A stretch of DNA of 64,000 nucleotides from a virus. Location: IMG/VR virus record IMGVR_UViG_3300036715_000213, positions 11,997-75,996 of that record, one strand, 5' to 3'. The position numbers were made by a program, and so were the translations under genes. Below the pieces are notes generated by a model that had not been told where the DNA came from, ran no database searches, and saw only the letters and a program-made list of their open reading frames with translations. This document shows positions 29,366 through 42,134 of this stretch, one piece after another. Position 1 is the first letter of the stretch. Each line of letters starts with the position of its first letter.

Positions 29366-30321
29366 ATTCTACCCCATGAAATGCGAGTTGTTAGTGAAAG
29401 TACATTTGTCGTATCCTTCGGAATAGCACGATCCAGAACAATTTGATATGCAAACACCGCAGTACTCTGACCCCATGATGCACGAATAGCTGCAATACCA
29501 CCAGTAGAATTCGCTAGTTGAATACCAAATGTCCATGTTGCATCAATGTAATAAGATCCACCAACATATGTGCCGTTACCAGCAGATCCATATGAGCTAC
29601 CTTGACTCCACCCGGACCCGGTTTGTGTGCCGCTTGGTCCACTTGCTGATACGTCTTGAATAGTTGGATATGATGGGGATGCTCCGTAGAAGCTCATACC
29701 CCATGGACCTAACCAACCATAGTAAAACGCTAAAGTCGATGCACCAAAACTGGCTGCGGAACATAATTTGGATGTGTAGTTATACGATGTACCGTTAATT
29801 GAGAACGAACCATATGATTCAGTTAGATTTGGAATTACCTTCACACGATAGTAGACAGTCAACTGGTCAATTGCAATTAGTGTAATGGAAATAGGATTAC
29901 CAAATGTGTCAGTAATTAAAGCTCGAGAAAATAAATTACCCGCTGCGGCTGCCCATCCAACACCAATCTCAGATATGTTACCAACAACCGCACCTTGGGT
30001 AAACGTCCATGCAAAAGTGTAGATACACGAATAACCATCTGCAGCTCCCTGATTAACTGCTGATGTAGCCGAGCTATTGCCAGCAGTTGACGATACAAGT
30101 TGCGCATCTAATGCTGTTTGTGTTTCAACAGGAGTGCTAACACCAGTACCTAATTTACAGTAAGAGAACACCTGTCCACCAGCAGTATAGAGTGCATCTA
30201 ATCCTTGGTTAAGAACAAGGTTGTCAAACCATCCAGTCTCCTGAACTACTTTCTCGCCGCGTCGTATAACGAGTTTATACTCGCCAGCGACTTTGTTGTG
30301 CATTTGTAAATTGATTGTCAT
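29362..30321 (-). CDS. Putative tail/virion structural protein
   Basis: ETGWFDNLVLNQGLD, GTG..P...QTAL, GNISEIGVG, LFSRALI (fibre-anchor-like N-domain). Confidence 0.6.
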   Translation of the reverse strand: MTINLQMHNKVAGEYKLVIRRGEKVVQETGWFDNLVLNQGLDALYTAGGQVFSYCKLGTGVSTPVETQTALDAQLVSSTAGNSSATSAVNQGAADGYSCIYTFAWTFTQGAVVGNISEIGVGWAAAAGNLFSRALITDTFGNPISITLIAIDQLTVYYRVKVIPNLTESYGSFSINGTSYNYTSKLCSAASFGASTLAFYYGWLGPWGMSFYGASPSYPTIQDVSASGPSGTQTGSGWSQGSSYGSAGNGTYVGGSYYIDATWTFGIQLANSTGGIAAIRASWGQSTAVFAYQIVLDRAIPKDTTNVLSLTTRISWGRI

Positions 30322-30779
30322 GTTAGAGTTCCTGAAATAATACCCACCCCGCCCAATTCATATTGCTCGATAGGTGTTGTATTTGTTACATAATTTATGG
30401 TTACTGTTAAAGTGCCGCTGAGAATATGTGGATGTCGCGCTTCCCATTCTTCCGGTGGGTTGTGATCAATTGTCTTATACGCGATGACTGTTTGTAGAGT
30501 ACCGCTTAAGATTCGACTATCTCCACGACCAACCTCCTCTGGGGGTTGGTGGTCATATACTGGATAACGAATTACCTCAGTCAATGTCCCGGAAATAATA
30601 TGGGGATGTCGGGCCTCATATTCATCTTCGGGTTGAGTCATATCTATTCCGTGAGTAATTCCCGGCGGATTTTGACGGATTGACTCATCGTATGCATGGG
30701 GGTATAAATTGCTCGTGAAGAACTGGGGTCTATGTTCTCGAGAACAGATAACTCCAATTGTTGCAACTGCATTCATCAT
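30318..30779 (-). CDS. Hypothetical virion protein with ~30-aa repeats
   Basis: Four E...I(I/L)SGTL repeats; own late promoter at 30802. Confidence 0.55.
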   Translation of the reverse strand: MMNAVATIGVICSREHRPQFFTSNLYPHAYDESIRQNPPGITHGIDMTQPEDEYEARHPHIISGTLTEVIRYPVYDHQPPEEVGRGDSRILSGTLQTVIAYKTIDHNPPEEWEARHPHILSGTLTVTINYVTNTTPIEQYELGGVGIISGTLT

Positions 30780-32796: not shown

Positions 32797-34104
32797 TCAA
32801 CCACGCGATACTAGAACGCCTGCGAAGTTGGTTACGTTAGTACCGAAGGCGACGACTGGTGTTGTACCAGTAGCCGTAACACGCAATTCGAATGTATCAC
32901 CAACTGCTGTGGTTTTAAACAGGTCAGTAATGCTTGCTGTGAGAGATGTAACTGATGCTCCGGTTACAGTCTTAGTGTAAACTGCTGCAGCATTCATCCA
33001 TAATTCTATAGTCATTGCAGTCAGTGCAGTTCCAGTAACTTGGACGTTACCAGTTAATTGATAGTAACCAATTACACCTGGAGTCCAACGGAATGTAGTT
33101 GTGCTATCGAAAACGCTAACGCTATCGAATGTTTCACCGTTGAATGGTAATACGACTGATGCTGCTGCACTTGTCAACGCAAATGTGGTTGTATTACGAA
33201 ATGCACGGAACACAGGTTCTGCTAAAGAGCCGTGCACGTGATCTTGACGTGCGAAACGAGTTGATGTACCAACAACTGCTGTTGCTGCTGCCGATACTGG
33301 AGTAGCTGAACCCGCTTGCCCAATAACAAACGCAGTAGTCGCTAATAATAGAGAACTGTTATCAACTGCTGGAGTTGATGTTGCTGTTGGAGTAACAAGA
33401 GCGGGACTTGAGTTATTTGCTTTTGTTGCAATGTTACCGTCTAGCTTATTGATAGCTTGGAGGATCGTATCAGTAACTGCTACAGTACCAGAACCTGATG
33501 CAAAACCAGTTAGAACCTTACTAATTACAGATGCATTAGTTACAGTCGTTGCATTACCAGTTGAAGTAACTTCACCAGTTAGATTAGCGTTAGTAGCATC
33601 GTTTCCAATCAACTTATTGATAGCTTGGAGGATCGTATCAGTGGAAGCAACTACACCAGCGCCTGGAGATAATCCAGTTAGAACCTTACCAATTACAGTT
33701 GCATTTGGAACTATAGTAGAATTACCAGTTGAAGTAACTTCACCAGTTAGATTAGCGTTTGTTGTTACAGTAGAAGCTAGAGTGGCGGTATTAGCATTTC
33801 CACTGAAGTTTGCGGCATACAAAGTGTCAGTGGATGGCTTGTAACGTAGATTAGTAGAGCTGATACGATACGGGACAGCACCAGTACCATTCGATGCAGT
33901 TGCACCAAATGCCCACATCGGGAACACAAATGCTGTATTTGTAACGTCATCAGTAATCGCAGTGTTGGTTGTCAACAGATCTAACTGATCGGCAATTGAC
34001 TTGATATTTCCATCAATTTCCAGATTAGTCAGCGGCGTACCCTTAACCGTTGTGGTTGTTGGTACTGTCGGTGTTGACGACGCGCGGTATTTAATTTTTG
34101 CCAT
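32797..34104 (-). CDS. Fibre protein with internal repeat and C1q/TNF-like tip
   Basis: KGTPLTNLEIDGN anchor, FARQDHVH motif, C-terminal FRAF..F..E.FD..FD..T.R..P...GYYQ. Confidence 0.7.
   Translation of the reverse strand: MAKIKYRASSTPTVPTTTTVKGTPLTNLEIDGNIKSIADQLDLLTTNTAITDDVTNTAFVFPMWAFGATASNGTGAVPYRISSTNLRYKPSTDTLYAANFSGNANTATLASTVTTNANLTGEVTSTGNSTIVPNATVIGKVLTGLSPGAGVVASTDTILQAINKLIGNDATNANLTGEVTSTGNATTVTNASVISKVLTGFASGSGTVAVTDTILQAINKLDGNIATKANNSSPALVTPTATSTPAVDNSSLLLATTAFVIGQAGSATPVSAAATAVVGTSTRFARQDHVHGSLAEPVFRAFRNTTTFALTSAAASVVLPFNGETFDSVSVFDSTTTFRWTPGVIGYYQLTGNVQVTGTALTAMTIELWMNAAAVYTKTVTGASVTSLTASITDLFKTTAVGDTFELRVTATGTTPVVAFGTNVTNFAGVLVSRG
33445..33759. repeat. 168-bp (56-aa) tandem duplication in the fibre gene
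   Basis: Identical blocks at 33445/33613 and 33553/33721. Confidence 0.85.
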
Positions 34105-34291
34105 TTATGTGTTCCAGTATTTTCTGCATCTGTTTCTTTAGTGTATTTACTTCATTCTGTAGACTATCAAAAGCGTCATGCTGCATCCGACTCTTCATGA
34201 AAGCCGCTTTGTCAACTACAACGATACTCCTATCGTCTTTCTTGTACAGCCCCTTGAGCGGTGATCCGTTACGATCAACTATCTGCTTCAT
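34091..34291 (-). CDS. Small hypothetical protein
   Basis: Coupled to both neighbours; C-terminal coiled coil. Confidence 0.6.
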   Translation of the reverse strand: MKQIVDRNGSPLKGLYKKDDRSIVVVDKAAFMKSRMQHDAFDSLQNEVNTLKKQMQKILEHINGKN

Positions 34292-36447
34292 GTTGCGACG
34301 ATAATGCTACGGTATTGGTCAATAACCGGATATGAAATCTTATCATTCGAACTCAATACAATCTTAATGTCGTACATGTCGAATCCATCGAGATCGTCAA
34401 TCTTAAACTCGTAGTCTTGATATTCGCCAAGTTTGCGTGCTAAGTTGCGGGCTGTGTCGCATGTCATCTCAACCCAATTACCACTCTTATGTGGTACAGT
34501 GCTGGCTGCTAATGAACTACGGAAGTAGACATTAAAAGATGTTGTTGCAATGCTACTAGCAGTAACAATAACGCGAGCGCCCTTGGAAATAGTTTCCAAT
34601 TGGAATGGCTGGCTAATGTAACGCGCATAAGCAGTCCCACCGCTTGGAGTCAACTCAGTTGCTTTGTCGAATGTCGATGCTGGGTTAGTCAGAATGTCAT
34701 TGACGTTATTATTTTCCAGTACCAAACGCGGTGTTGCACGTAAATCTAGCATTGGGGAAACGTTAACATTCTTTGATTCAAAATATAATAGCATTTCTGC
34801 GGAAGAATCACTACCGAAGAACAATTGCTCATTATCCAATGTAGCAATAACTGCTTCTTTGTCTAGGATAGTTGCTTGGCTCAATGAGATGTTTTCGTGT
34901 AAACCAACAAGGTAGTTCTCATCAGTTGTGCGTAGGGTAGCGCTCAATCCTGTTTCATTCGGAACTATAGTATTCAACAGTGGAGCAACTGCTTGGTAAC
35001 GACGGTTTAAACTTGTCGCGAAGATCGCTTCATCAATAACAGTTAAAGATGCACCGGATCCAGTTCCATCAGTAATCTTTACAGTTGGTGTAGTCATGTA
35101 ACCAGTACCAGCATTTGTGATAGTCACAGTGTTAATCTTACCACCAGAAGTTGTAACTGTTGCTGTTGCACCAGTACCATCGCCAATGATTTGTACTGTT
35201 GGAGCCGAGTAATTGATACCACCATCGTCAATCTCAATCGCTTCCATACGTCCTGTTGATGACAAGATTCCAGTAGATGTTGCGTTGGTAGCGCCCAAGC
35301 TAAATGTGAATGTGAAATCGTTAACCCGAGTTACAGTATATCCAGTTGAACTTGACAATATAGCAGATGGGATCCCACGGTATGTAGCACCTGTCAATCC
35401 ACGTAGGATAATCGTATCACTAGTCTTAAAACCGTGTTGCATTGGCAACGTGCAAGTCACCAGAGGTGAGCTGTTTGTAACTGAGAAATACTTACCGGGA
35501 ATACGATCGTTTGGAGCAACTGCGCGCAACTTCAACGATGCTTGAGAAGAGATATCAAATTTGGCGCGATATATGTTGAACTTAATGTCTTGCGTTTGCT
35601 CAGCAGTCCATGTAATGTTGTTTTCCGATTTAAACATGGAACCAACGAATGGTTGTTCACTAATCGTCTTACCAGTTTCTATAGACTTTGCACCCATCTC
35701 AGATGTGAAGGCATAGTATGAATTTGAGTTGGACAGCAGGACGAAACAGAAATCCTTATCTTCAGGCAAGTAGATTGGACGTGGGAAGATAAACTTTGTA
35801 CCAACCAATGCAGTATTGCTTGTGTTAACTGAGCTTGGATTTAACGAAACAAAAGACCATTCATTAACCAAGTCAGCTGCTGGATAACCGTTTTCTACAT
35901 TACGCAATTCACAACGCACTGGAATTGACGCATCCTTCGCTTGAAAGAACACTTCAATCATCGTTACAAAACAACCACCCTTGATACCATAGGTGAAGAA
36001 TGTCTGAGCAAGCGGATCGCCCGGCGGACGGGTTGTATTAACACGCACTACATTTTGTGTAATAACATTAATAGTTTTCTGAAATGTATCCAAGAAACCA
36101 TTAGCAGTAAACAATGTAGTCGCAGAGCTAACTGCGCTTCCAGCAAATGCTTCAGTTTCATAGTTGGATGTATCAAGCAATTTGAAAATACGCTCACCAG
36201 TGTTAAATGTGTTCCCCGGCATGCGGAACTCACCAGTAATTTTACCAGCAGCGTCTGATACAATCTGATCACCTAAGTTCTTACCGTCTTGTTTAATAAA
36301 TTCATCCACGCTCTTAGTATCAAAGAATGCGTAGAATTTACTATTTGGTTTCAAGTCAGTTGCAGCAAACTTAATCGTCTGTGGACGAATAAAAGAAAGT
36401 GATTTATAACCAACCAAACTGGTACGTGATTTTGTACGTGTTACCAT
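34288..36447 (-). CDS. DUF4815/VrlC-like virion protein, C-terminal half
   Basis: FIRPQTIKF..LKPNSKFYAFFD, DPLAQTFF, GSMFKSENNITWTAEQTQDIKF; own late promoter at 36466. Confidence 0.75.
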   Translation of the reverse strand: MVTRTKSRTSLVGYKSLSFIRPQTIKFAATDLKPNSKFYAFFDTKSVDEFIKQDGKNLGDQIVSDAAGKITGEFRMPGNTFNTGERIFKLLDTSNYETEAFAGSAVSSATTLFTANGFLDTFQKTINVITQNVVRVNTTRPPGDPLAQTFFTYGIKGGCFVTMIEVFFQAKDASIPVRCELRNVENGYPAADLVNEWSFVSLNPSSVNTSNTALVGTKFIFPRPIYLPEDKDFCFVLLSNSNSYYAFTSEMGAKSIETGKTISEQPFVGSMFKSENNITWTAEQTQDIKFNIYRAKFDISSQASLKLRAVAPNDRIPGKYFSVTNSSPLVTCTLPMQHGFKTSDTIILRGLTGATYRGIPSAILSSSTGYTVTRVNDFTFTFSLGATNATSTGILSSTGRMEAIEIDDGGINYSAPTVQIIGDGTGATATVTTSGGKINTVTITNAGTGYMTTPTVKITDGTGSGASLTVIDEAIFATSLNRRYQAVAPLLNTIVPNETGLSATLRTTDENYLVGLHENISLSQATILDKEAVIATLDNEQLFFGSDSSAEMLLYFESKNVNVSPMLDLRATPRLVLENNNVNDILTNPASTFDKATELTPSGGTAYARYISQPFQLETISKGARVIVTASSIATTSFNVYFRSSLAASTVPHKSGNWVEMTCDTARNLARKLGEYQDYEFKIDDLDGFDMYDIKIVLSSNDKISYPVIDQYRSIIVAT

Positions 36448-36481
36448 TGTATTCCTATTTTCTAGTATTTATTATACACTA

Positions 36482-39400
36482 TTAGAGTGATTTGTTGGAG
36501 TAAAAGTCCACGGATTTAATATTATGGTGCAAGATGAAGTTTCTATTAACATCACCAGCTAAGAAGCATTTGTTACCGCATGTAATGTGGCGAACTAATC
36601 CCATACCAATAAACTTAACATCAATAATCTCTTCCCAACGCAAAACACCGTTTAATTCAGTAACAGTGTGCTTGCCTAGCATATCCGGAGCATTGACTAA
36701 AGTTCCATTAATAGTTGGGATGGGTGCAGTAGAAGAACATGTTAATTTGACACCTAAAGTGGATGTCAGGCAATACAGAGGTTGTTCTTTAGTTTCAGCG
36801 AATGTAACTTCGTCAAAAGAACGTTTCCATGTATTTGGATCAACTGTTGGTATGATCATACCAACATTGATATCTTTAGCTTGCATTCCATTTTCCAGCC
36901 ATGCATCAAGAACAACACAGCCACCTCCACCATAGCTAGGAATTATAACTTGAAGCGGTAATGATGGAGGTAAGTATGCCCATCCCCATGGTCCTAGAAC
37001 TGGAGGTGGAGGTGGAGCAATAATTGGTGCCGGCGCTGGAATTGGCGCTGGCGCTGGTGGAGGTGGAACAACTACTGGTGGCGCTGGGATTGGAATAATC
37101 ACAGGAACTGGTGGTGTTGCTGCCACTGGTGGAGGTGTTACCTTAATCTCAACCTTTGGTACTGGTGGGATAATTACAACCGCTGGAGTGATGATTGGTG
37201 GAGTAATAATCACTGGACGTGGTGGTTGGATAAACACAAACTCAGTGATAGTCTCAGTTGATGTCTTAACGATATCAGCTAAGTTTTCAACTTCAGTCCA
37301 AGTGTCATCCTTTGGTACAATTTCCAGCGCGCCTTGCCAGCTAAACACAGCAAACGGGTTAATGTTGGTAATACGACTCGATACGCCTTGTGAAGCAAGG
37401 ATAACGTTTTCATAGTTCAGTGTTGCGATATCATTGATAATGGATACGTTAGTACCAACCGATACTGGAGATAACATTGTTTCAATACGATCAAACAATG
37501 GTTTAATCTTACCAGAAACATACGATACCTTAAATCCTGGATCAGTTACATCCGAGATAGCATCAGCATCGCTAAAGTTATCGACTAAGTAACCGCTCTT
37601 GTAACGTGATAGTCCAGTTGTTGTGTCAACAATGTCATAGTTAACTGCGCTCTGTTCTGCTTCGGATAGAGTGATGTAATCTTCGATGTTAGCCACACGC
37701 TTGTCTAGAGAAGCAACATCGCGCATAGTGTAAACACGGTTATCATTCTTCTTAACTGTACAATCAATTGCCTTGGCAGTATAAGGAGGAACTGTAATAG
37801 TTGCCAGCTTGATAGAATCTGCTGGCAGTGGCTTCTCTTTTGGTACGTCAGCTGGAGTACCTGTTATAATACTTAATGTACCATCCTTGCTGAAGATAAC
37901 AGAGTCAATACGACCAACATAGTGGCGAACAGTTGCAGTAATACGGGAATCATTCTGAACTAGCTTGCTTACAGAAGCGCCAGTACCGGTAAATGTTCCA
38001 TCAGTACCAACGCGCGGACGGAAGTCTAACACATTGCGTAGGTTGTATGTCTTACGGTCGTTTTTACTAGTGTAAGATAACAGTGGAGAATCATAGTAAC
38101 CAGACATTGTGGTGTACGAGTCAACGCTGAAGTAATCTCCAGAATTATGGCTAAAGTAATCGTATGTGACTGTCACATTGTATGCTGGAGTTTGTGCTCC
38201 AGCTTTCAAAGTAATTGATCCACGATCGTAAAAATAATCAGTTTGACCATTATCGTATGAGTAGCTAGCAGTTACATCAAGTTCGTTTGCTCCACCAGCG
38301 TCTTGCACAACCTTAGTAACACGAACCAAGTCAGCATGTGGCAACACAAGTGTCGCAGAACTTGGATTTATTGCAGCAGATACAACATTCTGGACTAGAG
38401 TTTTTGTCTTTGGAGCACGTGATGCACCAGTTACAGTAGCAGCACAAAATACGCTCAATGTGCTACTTGCTGGGCTAATGCCGCTAAAGGATACAGATAG
38501 CCCGTCTGGAGCGACTGTTGCTGTTGACAATGCTTGGATACCGCTGGAAGTAACCAGCAACATGTTGCCTTCTTCCTTTGGATTGATTGTCATACCAGTT
38601 ACAGTCATTGTACCAGCACCACCAGTAATAGTCACAGTTTGTTCATGATAAACAGTGTAAGAAATATCACTAACTTCGCTGTCACCCTTGGCGCTGTATG
38701 TGTAATCATATGGAAGTGGAACTAGCAGATTGTTAGTTACATTCTTAACGATAACTTCTTTGTCAATAACCTTAGCAGTTCCGCCGGATGTCATACCAAG
38801 AATGGTATCACCAATCAGTGGAGTTGATTCACCCACGCAACGAGTGTTAACGTACAAGACGCCTTCAGGGCGCAGGTACTTTATAACGTTACCGCAGCGA
38901 GCTTCTGATTCAACTTCTTCGTTTAGAGTAAACGCCAAGCTGTTAGTCGAAACCACAGTTAATTTATGCAATACAGTAGCAATCTCTGATGCACCATATG
39001 TGATGATACCAATCTCATCTACTGAGTGTGTTGGTCCCACAGCAATGTCAGTAACAAACATCTTGTAGATTGCATTGGTTGTGGTTGTGTTGGATTCAAC
39101 AAAATCAACTGCCAACAATGTAGCTGAACCAATAACAGTTCCAGCCGTAATATCCTTCAGTGTAACTGGCGAATGCAGCTTAAAGCTAGGTAGATTAGAC
39201 AGTCCAGTAACGTAAAACGCTTGTCCAAAGGATGGGACAATATTAATAACGTTCTCTTGGATGGATTCAACATCACGCGCTTTGTTAACAGTCAGCAACG
39301 TATCTGCTATCTTTTCGTTCTCGAATCCCTTGATGTATGCCTTACCAGCAGCAATAGTGTAAATCATCTTAGATGAATCACCGCCAGCTGTAGAAACATA

Positions 39401-40324
39401 ACGACCGTCGTTCAGTTCTGATTTCAAGTGTTCACGAGTTGTTACTTTCAAACCAGTTGTAACATAGTCACCGTTTGTGTCATAGTTACGACGAGCCAGA
39501 CCCTTGTCCAACTCATTATATTTTGGATAGCGGCTATGCTCTTCAAGAACGCCTTCATTATAGCGCATCAACTCGATGTAATCGTCATTTACAGCTACAC
39601 TTAAATCCAGAGTAACTAGGTTCAATGTAATTTGTAGACGATCTGCGCCTGGAGCCGCATAATTATATGAGCCCTGAGCTGGATCCAGCAACGTTGCGTC
39701 GTCATCCGATGTTACAACGCTTTCAACGATTTGTAGCAATACGCGAGTGCTTGGAGATGCGCTGTACTTGGAAATAACAACTGATTGCTTATTAACAGTC
39801 GCGAACGTGCCGTTTACATAGTAAACACCTTGGTCGATATTAGCAACTGCGGCTGCACCACATGGTGTTCCGCTTGCTGTGGTAAATGTAGTCGAGATGC
39901 CTTCAACAGTCAACACTTCACTCGCCAGGAATACCTTTTCACCGTTTGTACCGGAATTGCTATAGGAAACATACAGAGTATCAGGATCAGTCAAAGTCTT
40001 AGCAATGCCCTTACGGATGATACCGCGCAAACCGGAAGTCGCACCAACAACAAACTTGCCTTCAAGTGTAGCAATATCGTAGGATGTATCAACCAACTTC
40101 ACATAACATACATTGAAGTCGGAATTGATGTTACCCGGAATAACTACGGAGCCATGCTTAAACACGTGATTGCCAAACTTAGCAATCTGATTCTTCAGTA
40201 TTGATTGAATCTGTGTTAGTTCACGAGCCTGAATACTATTACCCGGCTTAAACAGGATTTGATAGAATTGTTTAGACTCATCAAAGTCGTCATAGTATGG
40301 ATTCGAATTTAAATTGATTGTCAT
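36482..40324 (-). CDS. DUF4815/VrlC-like virion protein, N-terminal half with Pro-rich linker and C-terminal Hint domain
   Basis: NPYYDDFD, LFKPG..IQARELTQIQS, APGADRL, LDFRPR, YTMRD, KSGYLVDNF, NINPFAVF. Confidence 0.8.
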   Translation of the reverse strand: MTINLNSNPYYDDFDESKQFYQILFKPGNSIQARELTQIQSILKNQIAKFGNHVFKHGSVVIPGNINSDFNVCYVKLVDTSYDIATLEGKFVVGATSGLRGIIRKGIAKTLTDPDTLYVSYSNSGTNGEKVFLASEVLTVEGISTTFTTASGTPCGAAAVANIDQGVYYVNGTFATVNKQSVVISKYSASPSTRVLLQIVESVVTSDDDATLLDPAQGSYNYAAPGADRLQITLNLVTLDLSVAVNDDYIELMRYNEGVLEEHSRYPKYNELDKGLARRNYDTNGDYVTTGLKVTTREHLKSELNDGRYVSTAGGDSSKMIYTIAAGKAYIKGFENEKIADTLLTVNKARDVESIQENVINIVPSFGQAFYVTGLSNLPSFKLHSPVTLKDITAGTVIGSATLLAVDFVESNTTTTNAIYKMFVTDIAVGPTHSVDEIGIITYGASEIATVLHKLTVVSTNSLAFTLNEEVESEARCGNVIKYLRPEGVLYVNTRCVGESTPLIGDTILGMTSGGTAKVIDKEVIVKNVTNNLLVPLPYDYTYSAKGDSEVSDISYTVYHEQTVTITGGAGTMTVTGMTINPKEEGNMLLVTSSGIQALSTATVAPDGLSVSFSGISPASSTLSVFCAATVTGASRAPKTKTLVQNVVSAAINPSSATLVLPHADLVRVTKVVQDAGGANELDVTASYSYDNGQTDYFYDRGSITLKAGAQTPAYNVTVTYDYFSHNSGDYFSVDSYTTMSGYYDSPLLSYTSKNDRKTYNLRNVLDFRPRVGTDGTFTGTGASVSKLVQNDSRITATVRHYVGRIDSVIFSKDGTLSIITGTPADVPKEKPLPADSIKLATITVPPYTAKAIDCTVKKNDNRVYTMRDVASLDKRVANIEDYITLSEAEQSAVNYDIVDTTTGLSRYKSGYLVDNFSDADAISDVTDPGFKVSYVSGKIKPLFDRIETMLSPVSVGTNVSIINDIATLNYENVILASQGVSSRITNINPFAVFSWQGALEIVPKDDTWTEVENLADIVKTSTETITEFVFIQPPRPVIITPPIITPAVVIIPPVPKVEIKVTPPPVAATPPVPVIIPIPAPPVVVPPPPAPAPIPAPAPIIAPPPPPVLGPWGWAYLPPSLPLQVIIPSYGGGGCVVLDAWLENGMQAKDINVGMIIPTVDPNTWKRSFDEVTFAETKEQPLYCLTSTLGVKLTCSSTAPIPTINGTLVNAPDMLGKHTVTELNGVLRWEEIIDVKFIGMGLVRHITCGNKCFLAGDVNRNFILHHNIKSVDFYSNKSL
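36521..36919 (-). other. Hint (intein-like) autoprocessing domain, 133 aa
   Basis: GGGG|CVVLDA...AKDINVG...VRHIT...FLAG...ILHHN|IKSV; +1 residue is Ile. Confidence 0.8.
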
Positions 40325-40325
40325 T

Positions 40326-42134
40326 TTAACACTTTATGTATGTTTTGAGTGCCAGGCTTTGTTCCGATGTAAACTTGAACGGTACCTCGGATGCTACTGT
40401 TAGGATGTCACCACTGTATTTATTGACTGCCGGAGAGGATATTAAATCAGTCGCAAACCAAGTTGTTGTACCATCTGATAGCGAACCCAACGGTGGAACA
40501 TTGTTTCCCGATAGCGGTTGCAGGTATGCTGTTGTTGCATCAAACTTTACAACCAAATAGCGATAGTTATTCGCCGAGCGTAGTTCCATATCAGATGCCA
40601 TTCCAGAAGTTGACAACATAGTCATCTTGTATGCCAACAATGCTTCTGATGTTGATGTAAACGAGTTGCTGTACAGTTGACGTGGATTCTTAATGACACC
40701 GTATTGGCGGAAGTCTTGATTAATATCTGAGATTATCGAGTTAGCACTTAGAACTGAGCTGATACAAATCACATCTGCTCCCAGTTCATTCACTGCATCG
40801 TATCCATGTCCATAATATGGAGCCTTAATTGCGCTTACTGTTGCTGTTACTGGACTTCCACCTGTTGGCGCTTCTACTACAAAATCCGCATAGCTGTAAC
40901 CAGAACCAAATGTCAGCATCTTCACGCCAACCAATGTTCCAGTACTCATAATAGCCAGTGCAGTTGCACCCTTACCGTCACCAGTGATAGTAATCTTTGG
41001 TGTAATTAGCGGATCGTACCCATTACCCGCAGTAGTAACCTTTGCTGCATAAATTCCACCAGCCACTGCTAGCTGCTCAACTACAGATTGGTCAGAGATT
41101 GTATCGTTCAATCCAATGTTAGCTGTCAGACTTGCACCAGTACCTGTCCCACCAACTGTTAAAATCATGTAAGAGTAGCCAGTTCCATTGTTCTCAATAA
41201 CAACATCAACAATTCCACCAGCGTAAACCACTGGAGTCAATACAGCGCCAGATCCATCGCCCTTTACAGCAATAGTGGAACTGTTGTTGCTTACATAGCT
41301 AATGCCTGGATCAACAACCAGAACTGATTGAATAACACCAGCAGAAACTATAGCAGTTAGGATTGCTCCACCACTATTCTCTGGATACTTGTGAGTTCCT
41401 GCTCCCGCAATAACAATTGTTGGAGCAGTTGTATATCCGGATCCGCCACTAACAATCTTAACACGGATAATGCTACCCGCTGCATCAATAACTGGAATCA
41501 GTACAGCACCGCTCCCATCACCAGATACAGATAATGTAGTTGCGGATGCGCTTGAGTATCCAGAACCGGGAGCATTGATAATAATATCTTCAACTGCTCC
41601 ACGATTGTAGAAGGAATCACTGATCGCATTTTGAACTGGAATGTATTGACTATTTGTAAACTTGAATTGCTTAAAAGATGGGATTGAATACATGTATTTC
41701 CACACGTAACCATCAGCGGCGCGGAACACTTCTAGCCCATCACCCGCTGATGGTTCAACTGTAGAAGCAACTCCACCATTGTTATCCAAGCACTTGTAAA
41801 CACGAAAAGAGGTGTTTACAACGTAGAAGTTCAAATCCTCCATTGCTACTGTATCATCCCAACGGGCATAGGTAGTTCCAGTCACCCAATCGTAACGATT
41901 AGCACATAGAGAAACATCGTTTGGCATGATTTTATTCATGTATAGCATATTCTCACGGATGCTTGAATCATTAGATAATGTCAATGCAGTAGTGCTTTCT
42001 GGCGGAAAATCCGGTACGCCCCAGCTAGATGCTTTACCTAGATAGTAGTAAAGGTTGCTCTTTTGGAGTTGAACTTCCTTAACAAACTGAGATGCTAGAT
42101 TTGTGTGAAATTCTTGTTTGAGAATTTGTGACAT
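40326..42134 (-). CDS. gp8: Baseplate wedge subunit
   Basis: RYDWVTGTTY, VYKCLDN, DGYVWKYMY, GHGYDAVNELG, DFRQYGVIKNP, KYSGDIL. Confidence 0.88.
   Translation of the reverse strand: MSQILKQEFHTNLASQFVKEVQLQKSNLYYYLGKASSWGVPDFPPESTTALTLSNDSSIRENMLYMNKIMPNDVSLCANRYDWVTGTTYARWDDTVAMEDLNFYVVNTSFRVYKCLDNNGGVASTVEPSAGDGLEVFRAADGYVWKYMYSIPSFKQFKFTNSQYIPVQNAISDSFYNRGAVEDIIINAPGSGYSSASATTLSVSGDGSGAVLIPVIDAAGSIIRVKIVSGGSGYTTAPTIVIAGAGTHKYPENSGGAILTAIVSAGVIQSVLVVDPGISYVSNNSSTIAVKGDGSGAVLTPVVYAGGIVDVVIENNGTGYSYMILTVGGTGTGASLTANIGLNDTISDQSVVEQLAVAGGIYAAKVTTAGNGYDPLITPKITITGDGKGATALAIMSTGTLVGVKMLTFGSGYSYADFVVEAPTGGSPVTATVSAIKAPYYGHGYDAVNELGADVICISSVLSANSIISDINQDFRQYGVIKNPRQLYSNSFTSTSEALLAYKMTMLSTSGMASDMELRSANNYRYLVVKFDATTAYLQPLSGNNVPPLGSLSDGTTTWFATDLISSPAVNKYSGDILTVASEVPFKFTSEQSLALKTYIKC

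What the first reader, a model, noticed from the sequence alone, without database searches (positions are those of the whole stretch)
34288..37230. Split virion gene whose N-half ends in Pro-rich stalk, GGGG and a Hint domain: possible covalent tailoring of the virion
Seen: DUF4815-like sequence stops near 37240, then about 100 aa of Pro-rich linker, YGGGG, a 133-aa Hint domain (C1...HN, +1 Ile, block B CSSTAP without His) and a 12-aa tail. The rest of the family sequence restarts as a separate gene with its own late promoter. Known: Hint domains without a +1 nucleophile (BIL, hedgehog) form a thioester at C1 that is hydrolysed or attacked by an outside nucleophile. Inference: an exposed stalk with an activated C-terminal Gly-Gly, resembling a ubiquitin C-terminus, could be ligated to a partner protein, small molecule or host surface, or act as a decoy for ubiquitin-like anti-phage systems.
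Basis: partly seen in the sequence, partly recalled or inferred. Interest (0 to 1): 0.75.

Follow-up and report, generated by a model that had tools for sequence, protein, structure and literature searches.

The report
Self-processing Hint cap on split baseplate protein
An uncultured T4-like phage encodes its large VrlC/DUF4815 baseplate protein as two genes, and the first half ends in a proline-rich stalk, four glycines and a real but atypical intein-like (Hint) domain that most likely cuts itself off; no processing has been measured.

Summary
Observation confirmed at the stated coordinates. P0001 (36482-40324, minus strand, 1280 aa) consists of:
- a VrlC/DUF4815 N-half (residues 1-1030)
- a 99-aa Pro-rich stalk
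- SYGGGG
- a 133-aa domain from Cys1136 to His-His-Asn1268
- a 12-aa tail

P0002 (34288-36447) is the family's C-half, with its own ribosome-binding site.

An AlphaFold model of the domain (pLDDT 92) matches mini-inteins, BIL and Hedgehog domains (Z 18, rmsd 1.6 Å). Its first and last residues fall on those of the inteins.

The domain belongs to a large family (697 cluster representatives) that Pfam and NCBIfam do not detect. That family nearly always keeps oligo-Gly|Cys1, His-His-Asn and Lys at +2, but has Ala where inteins have their most conserved histidine. This scan has reported the same family before on other phage DNA.

New here:
- All 18 VrlC proteins carrying a Hint are split forms, and none of 79 unsplit ones has one.
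- 38 of 56 split forms lack a Hint, including the window's closest relatives.
- Sister lineages carry a different, Hedgehog-type Hint or other modules at the same end.

So the split does not depend on the Hint. The Hint is an exchangeable cap on a free, exposed C-terminus.

Autoprocessing is the best reading (about 0.55). Ligation to a partner is possible but unsupported, and the ubiquitin-decoy idea has no support.

The parts
37235..40324 (-). N-half of the VrlC/DUF4815 baseplate protein (P0001 residues 1-1030)
   Evidence: PF16075 E 1.6e-57 and phrog_358 E 2.8e-227, profile positions 4-1121 of 2056. Aligns to residues 1-1236 of the unsplit HTVC008M VrlC.
36938..37234 (-). Pro-rich stalk (residues 1031-1129)
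   Evidence: 38 Pro in the 105 residues before Cys1, alternating with Ile, Val and Ala. Similar Pro-rich linkers precede the Hint in P0005, P0006, P0007 and the L015-type loci.
36920..36937 (-). SYGGGG, the residues just before the predicted cleavage site
   Evidence: Across the family, 108 of 150 copies have at least 3 Gly in the 8 residues before Cys1, and the -1 residue is Gly in 88 and Ala in 21 of 157.
36521..36919 (-). Atypical Hint domain, Cys1136 to Asn1268 (133 aa)
   Evidence: AF2 pLDDT 92. Foldseek top hits are all inteins, BIL or Hedgehog domains, E 4e-8. VIA Z 18.2, rmsd 1.6 Å over 120 residues to the gp41-1 intein, with model residues 7 and 139 aligned to the intein's first and last residues. 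697 relatives by phmmer.
36485..36520 (-). 12-aa tail IKSVDFYSNKSL (+1 Ile, +2 Lys)
   Evidence: Low pLDDT in the model. Lys at +2 in 122 of 157 family copies. Tails of 11-16 aa in the other VrlC-linked copies.
36448..36484 (-). Stop codons (TAA TAG) and the 34-nt gap, with AATAAATA (36466-36473) and AGGA (36453-36456)
   Evidence: The motif count is not above chance, but 15 of 17 copies lie on this strand.
34288..36447 (-). C-half of VrlC as a separate gene (P0002, 719 aa)
   Evidence: phrog_358 E 4.6e-116. Aligns to residues 1328-2000 of HTVC008M VrlC. No intein fragment at its N-terminus.
40326..42134 (-). gp8-like baseplate wedge gene directly upstream (context)
   Evidence: phrog_438 E 4.8e-91. 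Same order (gp8, VrlC, small protein, fibre-like protein) as in HTVC008M and S-CRM01.

Best explanation
The 133-aa domain is a catalytically active, atypical Hint domain. It acts as a self-removing cap on the free C-terminus of the VrlC N-half.

**Inferred steps**
1. Cys1136 attacks the Gly1135 carbonyl, converting the Gly-Cys peptide bond to a thioester.
2. Asn1268 cyclises and cuts the bond to Ile1269.
3. The thioester is resolved by water, leaving a stalk that ends in ...SYGGGG. Alternatively, the freed amino group or the Lys+2 side chain of the 12-aa tail attacks it and re-joins the tail, as described for type-A BIL and BIL2 domains.

**What is shown and what is not**
- Shown: the fold, the residues and their conservation, the split, and the distribution among relatives.
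- Not shown: any cleavage.

The split of VrlC is older than, and independent of, this cap. The split created an exposed C-terminus in a variable linker, and different lineages have attached different modules there.
For: - **Fold.** AF2 pLDDT 92. PDB hits are exclusively Hint domains, VIA Z 18.2, with Cys1 and the terminal Asn superposed on the intein termini.
- **Selection on the junction residues.** Measured across 157 copies that are only 30-45% identical: Cys1 154, His-His-Asn 154/152/150, Lys+2 122, block-B Ser 157. Most copies are preceded by oligo-Gly. A purely structural domain would not be expected to keep exactly its first and last residues.
- **Possible relocated histidine.** In the gp41-1 alignment, a His (120 of 157) stands where intein block F has Asp. 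This may replace the missing block-B His.
- **A second Hint type at the same position.** Sister lineages carry a Hedgehog-type Hint (G|CFT, T-x-N-H-P, no His-Asn). Pfam Hint scores E 4.6e-6, below Pfam's gathering cut-off, and Pfam Hint families are on record for P0169, P0184 and P0189. The shared property of the two types is N-terminal autoprocessing.
- **Carriers.** The family caps many distal tail proteins: lambda I and J, a gp5-like hub, fibres and other VrlC N-halves. The median tail is 14.5 aa.
- **Chemistry.** The reaction scheme is as published for type-A BILs (PMC4031507).
Against: - No experiment exists for any member of this family.
- The block-B histidine is Ala in 153 of 157 copies. 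[quoted passage not shown]
- Sequence similarity to known Hint domains is marginal: best E 0.18 by profile, and no Pfam or NCBIfam hit. The assignment therefore rests on a predicted structure.
- The window's closest relatives do without the domain, so whatever it does is dispensable for the baseplate.
Confidence: 0.55

Rival explanations
1. Conjugation. The Gly-Cys thioester is resolved by an outside nucleophile rather than by water or the protein's own tail. Candidates are a lysine of another virion protein, a host envelope amine or a small molecule. The result would be a covalent link at the end of the stalk.
For: - Tetrahymena BIL2 forms Lys isopeptide bonds from a Gly C-terminus without ATP (PMC8616854), and it is among the best structural matches.
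- Oligo-Gly before Cys1 and Lys at +2 are family hallmarks.
- The carriers are distal tail proteins that meet the cell envelope.
Against: - No conserved partner or acceptor was found.
- The nearest relatives lack the domain.
- The strictly conserved His-His-Asn points to processing at the domain's own C-terminal junction, which an outward transfer alone would not need.
Confidence: 0.15
2. Non-catalytic knob. The Hint fold is kept as a stable binding or structural domain displayed on a proline-rich stalk, and it stays on the virion.
For: - The block-B His is absent.
- The domain sits at the tip of a stalk, where receptor-binding modules usually sit.
- The end of the N-half is hypervariable among relatives, as adhesin tips are.
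Against: - Cys1 and the terminal His-His-Asn are nearly invariant in a family that is otherwise 30-45% identical.
- A different Hint class occupies the same site in sister phages.
Confidence: 0.15
3. Selfish or decaying element. An intein-like element entered the linker, broke the gene, and now persists without benefit to the phage.
For: - Hint domains were gained at this site more than once. On the N-half tree the window's Hint type needs 3 changes. The window's Hint also groups with Hints of non-VrlC proteins.
- 'Fractured genes' with split inteins are known from phage-rich metagenomes (PMC2677866).
Against: - No homing endonuclease gene is present. There is no C-intein piece on the C-half and no +1 nucleophile.
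- The split exists in 38 relatives without any Hint.
- The catalytic termini are conserved rather than decaying.
- The same arrangement is kept in 12 independent contigs.
Confidence: 0.08
4. Re-joining of the halves. The thioester is attacked by the C-half protein, restoring a single VrlC chain after translation.
For: Only the adjacency of the two genes.
Against: - 38 split relatives, including the sisters P0157 and P0158, have no Hint.
- The same domain caps unrelated proteins whose downstream genes are not their own missing halves.
- The C-half starts Met-Val-Thr, with no conserved nucleophile motif.
Confidence: 0.03

Closest known systems
Type-A bacterial intein-like (BIL) domains (e.g. Clostridium thermocellum BIL, PDB 2lwy)
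   Same: - Hint fold (Z 16.8).
- Cys1, terminal His-Asn and no +1 nucleophile.
- Sits in variable surface proteins.
- Published behaviour is cleavage at both ends, with some splicing by attack of the freed amine (PMC4031507).
   Different: - No block-B His (Ala).
- His in place of the block-F Asp.
- An extra His before His-Asn, a Lys at +2 and an oligo-Gly lead-in.
- Not detected by any Pfam Hint model even at E 10.
- Usually at the very C-terminus, with a tail of about 14 aa.
Tetrahymena BUBL BIL2 domain (PDB 6y75, 6tmm)
   Same: - Hint fold (Foldseek E 2e-7, Z 17.1).
- A Gly-Gly|Cys junction.
- Published to pass the Gly C-terminus to a lysine as an isopeptide (PMC8616854).
   Different: - BIL2 lies between two ubiquitin-like domains and relies on a block-B-region His69.
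- Here the N-side is a Pro-rich stalk of a baseplate protein and the C-side is a 12-aa tail.
- Identity is about 14%.
Hedgehog/Hog C-terminal autoprocessing domain (PDB 1at0)
   Same: - Located at the C-terminal end of a protein, with a Gly|Cys junction.
- Hint fold (Z 17.8).
- A thioester resolved by a nucleophile other than a +1 residue.
   Different: - Hedgehog has T-x-x-H, lacks the terminal His-Asn, and needs a sterol-recognition region after the Hint.
- The window has only 12 residues after it.
- Sister phages (L039, P0169 and others) carry a more Hedgehog-like Hint followed by a helical tail.
Mini-inteins and split-intein 'fractured genes' (gp41-1, DnaB; PMC2677866)
   Same: - Best structural matches (Z 18.2).
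- A phage gene in two pieces with a Hint at the break.
   Different: - The Hint is whole and lies on one polypeptide.
- No C-intein on the C-half, no +1 Cys/Ser/Thr and no endonuclease gene.
- The halves cannot be spliced by the canonical route.
Peptidase_S74 intramolecular chaperone domains of phage tailspikes and fibres
   Same: A C-terminal module of tail proteins that removes itself autocatalytically (as reviewed in PMC7824862). This is a functional analogy for a 'self-removing cap'.
   Different: Unrelated fold and chemistry: a Ser-Lys dyad protease, with no thioester.

Membership tests
Hint (Hedgehog/intein) fold superfamily | Disk-shaped all-beta Hint fold whose first and last residues meet at the active site | tested here: met
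   AF2 pLDDT 92. All top PDB hits are Hint domains. VIA Z 18.2, rmsd 1.6 Å over 120 residues. Model residues 7 and 139 align to intein residues 1 and last.
Hint (Hedgehog/intein) fold superfamily | Significant match to a curated Hint sequence model | tested here: not met
   No Pfam family at E up to 10 for the window's domain. No Pfam or NCBIfam Hint model for 38 family members. Best profile hit to an intein sequence is E 0.18.
Canonical class-1 intein | Cys or Ser at position 1 | tested here: met
   Cys1136. Cys in 154 of 157 family copies.
Canonical class-1 intein | Block B Thr-x-x-His | tested here: not met
   The window has S-S-T-A. Ser is invariant and the His position is Ala in 153 of 157 copies.
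Canonical class-1 intein | Cys, Ser or Thr at +1, and an in-frame C-extein that completes the host protein | tested here: not met
   The +1 residue is Ile. A 12-aa tail is followed by TAA TAG. The C-half is a separate gene.
Type-A BIL domain | Cys1 plus terminal His-Asn, without a +1 nucleophile | tested here: met
Type-A BIL domain | Intein-like block-B motif with His; detectable sequence relationship (e.g. Pfam PT-HINT) | tested here: not met
   Ala at the His position. No PT-HINT hit.
Type-A BIL domain | Autocleavage or splicing activity | not testable with these tools
   Needs expression and mass spectrometry.
Hedgehog/Hog autoprocessing module | Hint followed by an adduct (sterol) recognition region | tested here: not met
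   Only 12 residues follow the domain.
Split intein / fractured gene | N-intein on the first gene and C-intein plus a +1 nucleophile at the start of the second | tested here: not met
   The Hint is complete on P0001. From its second residue P0002 aligns to contiguous sequence of unsplit VrlC, and it has no His-Asn motif.
VrlC / DUF4815 (PF16075, phrog_358) baseplate-region protein | Significant match to the family models, and the position after the gp8-like wedge gene | tested here: met
   PF16075 E 1.6e-57. phrog_358 E 2.8e-227 (N-half) and 4.6e-116 (C-half). Synteny with HTVC008M, BUCT-ZZ01 and S-CRM01.
Unnamed phage 'oligo-Gly / Cys ... His-His-Asn / x-Lys' Hint family | Sequence relationship and the signature residues | tested here: met
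   697 representatives at E up to 1e-3 and 302 at E up to 1e-10. The window has every signature position.

The most novel reading that the evidence does not exclude
The domain is a thioester 'warhead' on a long proline-rich stalk. It keeps the Gly-Cys bond activated until an amine attacks, then ligates the oligo-Gly end as an isopeptide with no E1, E2 or E3 enzymes. The attacking amine could be the Lys+2 of its own tail, a lysine of a neighbouring baseplate protein, or a host envelope component. Phage tails would then use ubiquitin-like chemistry to cross-link or to anchor themselves. The Hedgehog-type Hint with a helical tail in sister phages could, by analogy, attach a lipid-like adduct.
Probability: 0.15. 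Interest if true: 0.85.

Novelty: new variant of a known kind. Interest (0 to 1): 0.62.

Why it matters
**Uncatalogued family.** A family of hundreds of sequence clusters caps distal tail and baseplate proteins of uncultured phages, yet it is absent from Pfam and NCBIfam. I found it in no paper. If it is active, it adds a second, chemically different way, besides Peptidase_S74 chaperones, by which phages mature tail proteins after translation.

**Enzymology.** The family works without the histidine that inteins almost never lose. That makes it a natural test case for Hint catalysis and a possible source of compact C-terminal thioester generators.

**This locus.** The VrlC split site is a hotspot where two Hint classes and other modules have been exchanged. 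This points to the end of the N-half as an exposed, host-facing position in the baseplates of marine T4-like phages.

Tried and rejected
Genomic context came from the search for related loci instead.
- **No close DNA relative:** megablast of the region against cultured phages found nothing.
- **The search for related loci:** the 38-sequence alignment was too diverse to use. The single 255-aa query found nothing. An 11-sequence alignment worked.
- **Domain libraries:** Pfam at E 10, NCBIfam and PDB sequences gave no significant Hint hit.
- **Proteins over 2240 aa carrying this Hint:** none found. This would have revealed an unsplit VrlC with an internal Hint, but the negative is weak because the search is word-based.
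- **Long tails behind the Hint in other members:** no Pfam family in any of them.
- **Other end modules of split N-halves:** no Pfam family.
- **Model of the Hedgehog-type Hint plus tail:** AF2 gave pLDDT 55, too poor for a fold search.
- **Late-promoter motif:** not enriched.
- **Read-through fusion of the halves:** rejected. The window has three in-frame stops, and the gap length, and hence the frame, varies among close relatives (16, 18, 19 and 20 nt).
- **Literature:** searches found no description of Hint caps on phage tail proteins.


Full report
**1. What is in the sequence**

All the genes discussed here lie on the minus strand.
- The ORF at 36482-40324 encodes 1280 residues (P0001). 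The ORF at 34288-36447 encodes 719 residues (P0002).
- P0001 residues 1-1030 match DUF4815 (PF16075, E 1.6e-57) and phrog_358 (E 2.8e-227, profile positions 4-1121 of 2056).
- P0002 matches the later part of the same profile (E 4.6e-116).
- The gene upstream is a gp8-like baseplate wedge (phrog_438, E 4.8e-91).
- The gene order (gp8, VrlC, a ~70-aa protein, a fibre-like protein) is the same as in the Kyanoviridae phages HTVC008M and S-CRM01. In HTVC008M, BUCT-ZZ01 and S-CRM01, VrlC is one ORF of 2001, 2097 and 2484 aa.
- The window is part of a 76-kb IMG/VR viral contig, about 43% complete.

After residue 1030, P0001 continues as follows:
- a stalk with 38 Pro in the 105 residues before Cys1, ending in SYGGGG
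- Cys1136
- a 133-aa domain ending His-His-Asn1268
- the tail IKSVDFYSNKSL, then TAA TAG

The 34-nt gap has AGGA 5 nt before the ATG of P0002, and AATAAATA 19 nt upstream. That motif is not more frequent in the window than chance (17 found, 17.2 expected), although 15 of the 17 copies are on this strand.

**2. Is it a Hint domain?**

Sequence alone barely says so.
- Pfam finds nothing even at E 10.
- The best PDB sequence hits are inteins, at E 0.18-0.6.

Structure is clear.
- An alignment of 38 relatives gave an AlphaFold model with pLDDT 92.
- The best 50 Foldseek matches in the PDB are all mini-inteins, BIL domains or Hedgehog (NpuDnaB E 4e-8, TM 0.73).
- VIA-align gives Z 18.2, rmsd 1.6 Å over 120 residues to the gp41-1 intein. 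Model residues 7 (Cys1) and 139 (Asn) align to the first and last intein residues.

The HMMER alignments place the window's C-S-S-T-A opposite the intein T-x-x-H, so the His is replaced by Ala. They also place a His opposite the block-F Asp.

**3. The family**

- phmmer against 1.8 billion cluster representatives finds 697 relatives at E up to 1e-3, and 302 at E up to 1e-10.
- No Pfam or NCBIfam Hint model detects 38 of them.

Residue counts in 157 copies:

| Position | Residue and count |
|---|---|
| 1 | Cys 154 |
| 2 | Val 147 |
| -1 | Gly 88, Ala 21 |
| Block B, Thr position | Ser 157 |
| Block B, His position | Ala 153 |
| Block B, next residue | Pro 155 |
| Terminal His-His-Asn | 154 / 152 / 150 |
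| +1 | Aliphatic or Lys |
| +2 | Lys 122 |

- 108 of 150 copies have at least three Gly in the eight residues before Cys1.
- The median tail behind the domain is 14.5 aa.
- Carriers include lambda-type tail proteins I and J, a gp5-like hub, a Hoc-like protein, fibres and other VrlC N-halves.
- Some members start with leaders that resemble bacteriocin double-glycine leaders.
- Only eight cultured phage genomes carry the domain.
- I found no paper that describes it.
- Earlier notes of this scan report the same family on other phage DNA. I re-derived its features independently here.

**4. Does the Hint go with the split?**

Twelve viral contigs found through the Hint carry a VrlC N-half with a Pro-rich linker, oligo-Gly, the Hint and a 13-15 aa tail.
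- In the 11 contigs where downstream DNA is available, a separate C-half gene follows after 11-20 nt, behind a ribosome-binding site.
- The gap length, and so the reading frame, differs among close relatives. The halves are therefore translated separately.

A search with the end of the N-half shows a clean division.
- The 44 nearest relatives (38-64% identical) are all N-half-only proteins of 1055-1305 aa.
- The 76 more distant ones are unsplit, at 1565-2240 aa.
- With the three cultured genomes, none of 79 unsplit proteins has a Hint.
- 18 of 56 split ones have a Hint. Eleven are of the window's type and seven are of a second type.

The split site falls in a ~90-110 aa variable linker of the unsplit proteins.

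However, the split does not need a Hint.
- On a FastTree of the N-half, the window sits in a well-supported clade of 46 split forms.
- Its sisters P0157 and P0158 (99% local support) have the Pro-rich stalk but no Hint.

The ends of these N-halves are hypervariable. They include:
- short Ser/Gly/Asp tails
- Trp-rich ends
- an oligo-Gly + K-I-I-C helical module
- a Hedgehog-type Hint in seven cases (G|C-F-T, T-x-N-H-P, no His-Asn; Pfam Hint E 4.6e-6), followed by a conserved helical tail of about 85 aa

The window's type of Hint needs three changes on the N-half tree. On a tree of the Hint domains, the window's copy groups with Hints of non-VrlC proteins, not with those of the other VrlC lineage. 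Both trees are FastTree only, so the counts are provisional.

The picture is of an exposed C-terminus, created by an older gene split, onto which Hint caps were added more than once.

**5. Mechanism**

Published chemistry for type-A BIL domains runs as follows: thioester formation at Cys1, Asn cyclisation at the C-terminal junction, then hydrolysis or attack by the freed amine (PMC4031507). The near-invariance of exactly these terminal residues in a divergent family argues that both junction reactions are under selection.

The missing block-B His is the main doubt. [quoted passage not shown] The His at the block-F position, the extra His before His-Asn, or Lys+2 may compensate; this is inference.

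My best reading (0.55) is a self-removing cap that leaves the stalk ending in oligo-Gly, with or without the 12-aa tail re-joined.

Transfer to another nucleophile has a published precedent in Tetrahymena BIL2, which makes Lys isopeptides (PMC8616854). It fits the oligo-Gly and Lys+2 hallmarks, but I found no acceptor or partner (0.15).

The other rivals:
- A non-catalytic knob (0.15).
- A selfish remnant (0.08).
- Re-joining of the two halves (0.03). This is disfavoured because the sister phages lack the Hint.
- A decoy for ubiquitin-like defence. Nothing supports this.

**6. Verdict**

- This is a new variant of a known kind: an uncatalogued Hint subfamily with a rearranged active site, here on a naturally split baseplate protein.
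- The family itself was already noticed by this scan elsewhere.
- What this locus adds is the comparative evidence. The split and the cap are separable, and two Hint classes converge on the same site.

Noticed in passing
L039:5101-5973 (+); also P0169, P0175, P0184, P0186, P0189, P0192: Closer relatives of the window's VrlC N-half end in a different, Hedgehog-type Hint (Gly|Cys-Phe-Thr, T-x-N-H-P, no His-Asn). It is followed by a conserved five-helix tail of about 85 aa that ends in a hydrophobic, Lys-rich stretch. The layout recalls Hedgehog's Hint plus adduct-recognition region. The AF2 model was poor (pLDDT 55).
   Followed up: partly
C-terminal ~120-150 aa of P0160, P0166, P0168, P0170, P0176, P0177, P0180, P0191, P0193: A third recurrent module on split VrlC N-halves: oligo-Gly, then K-[IV]-[IVL]-C-[TA], then a helical domain of about 120 aa with a hydrophobic Lys-rich end. 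It has no Pfam family. The oligo-Gly plus Cys lead-in resembles that of the Hint caps.
   Followed up: partly
P0157 and P0158 (sisters of the window's protein), last ~16 residues: Both keep the Pro-rich stalk but lack the Hint. They end GGG-RIWNSMAKIQ-HN and GGG-RGGFMDRATFQ-MN. This could be what remains after an internal deletion of a Hint, or it could be coincidence.
   Followed up: no
P0047, P0050, P0063, P0064, P0066, P0084, P0090, P0103, P0129 (alignment A1): Small members of the Hint family begin with leaders resembling bacteriocin double-glycine leaders (M-R-E-L...V-S-G-G). Several also contain glycine-zipper segments. They look like secreted peptide precursors matured by the same Hint.
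   Followed up: no
L002, L004, L007, L009, L010, L011, L012 (IMG/VR loci): Two adjacent genes each end in a Hint of this family. In L008, L010, P0033 and P0040, Cys-rich peptides flank the Hint on both sides. P0009, P0013, P0027, P0032, P0042, P0043 and P0098 carry two Hints in tandem, joined by a short Lys-containing peptide.
   Followed up: no
L041:4503-6046 (Xanthomonas phage PhiXhv-16): A 313-aa protein ending in this Hint is followed, with a 4-nt overlap, by a gene annotated as a 2OG-Fe(II) oxygenase. This is a possible link between Hint caps and modifying enzymes.
   Followed up: no
window 32797-34104 (-): The 435-aa fibre-like protein downstream contains an internal duplication of about 65 aa (NANLTGEVTSTGN...TDTILQAINKL appears twice). 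It has no Pfam or PHROG match.
   Followed up: no
window 30318-30779 (-): A 153-aa ORF contains three repeats of the motif ...PPEE.EARHPHI(I/L)SGTL....
   Followed up: no
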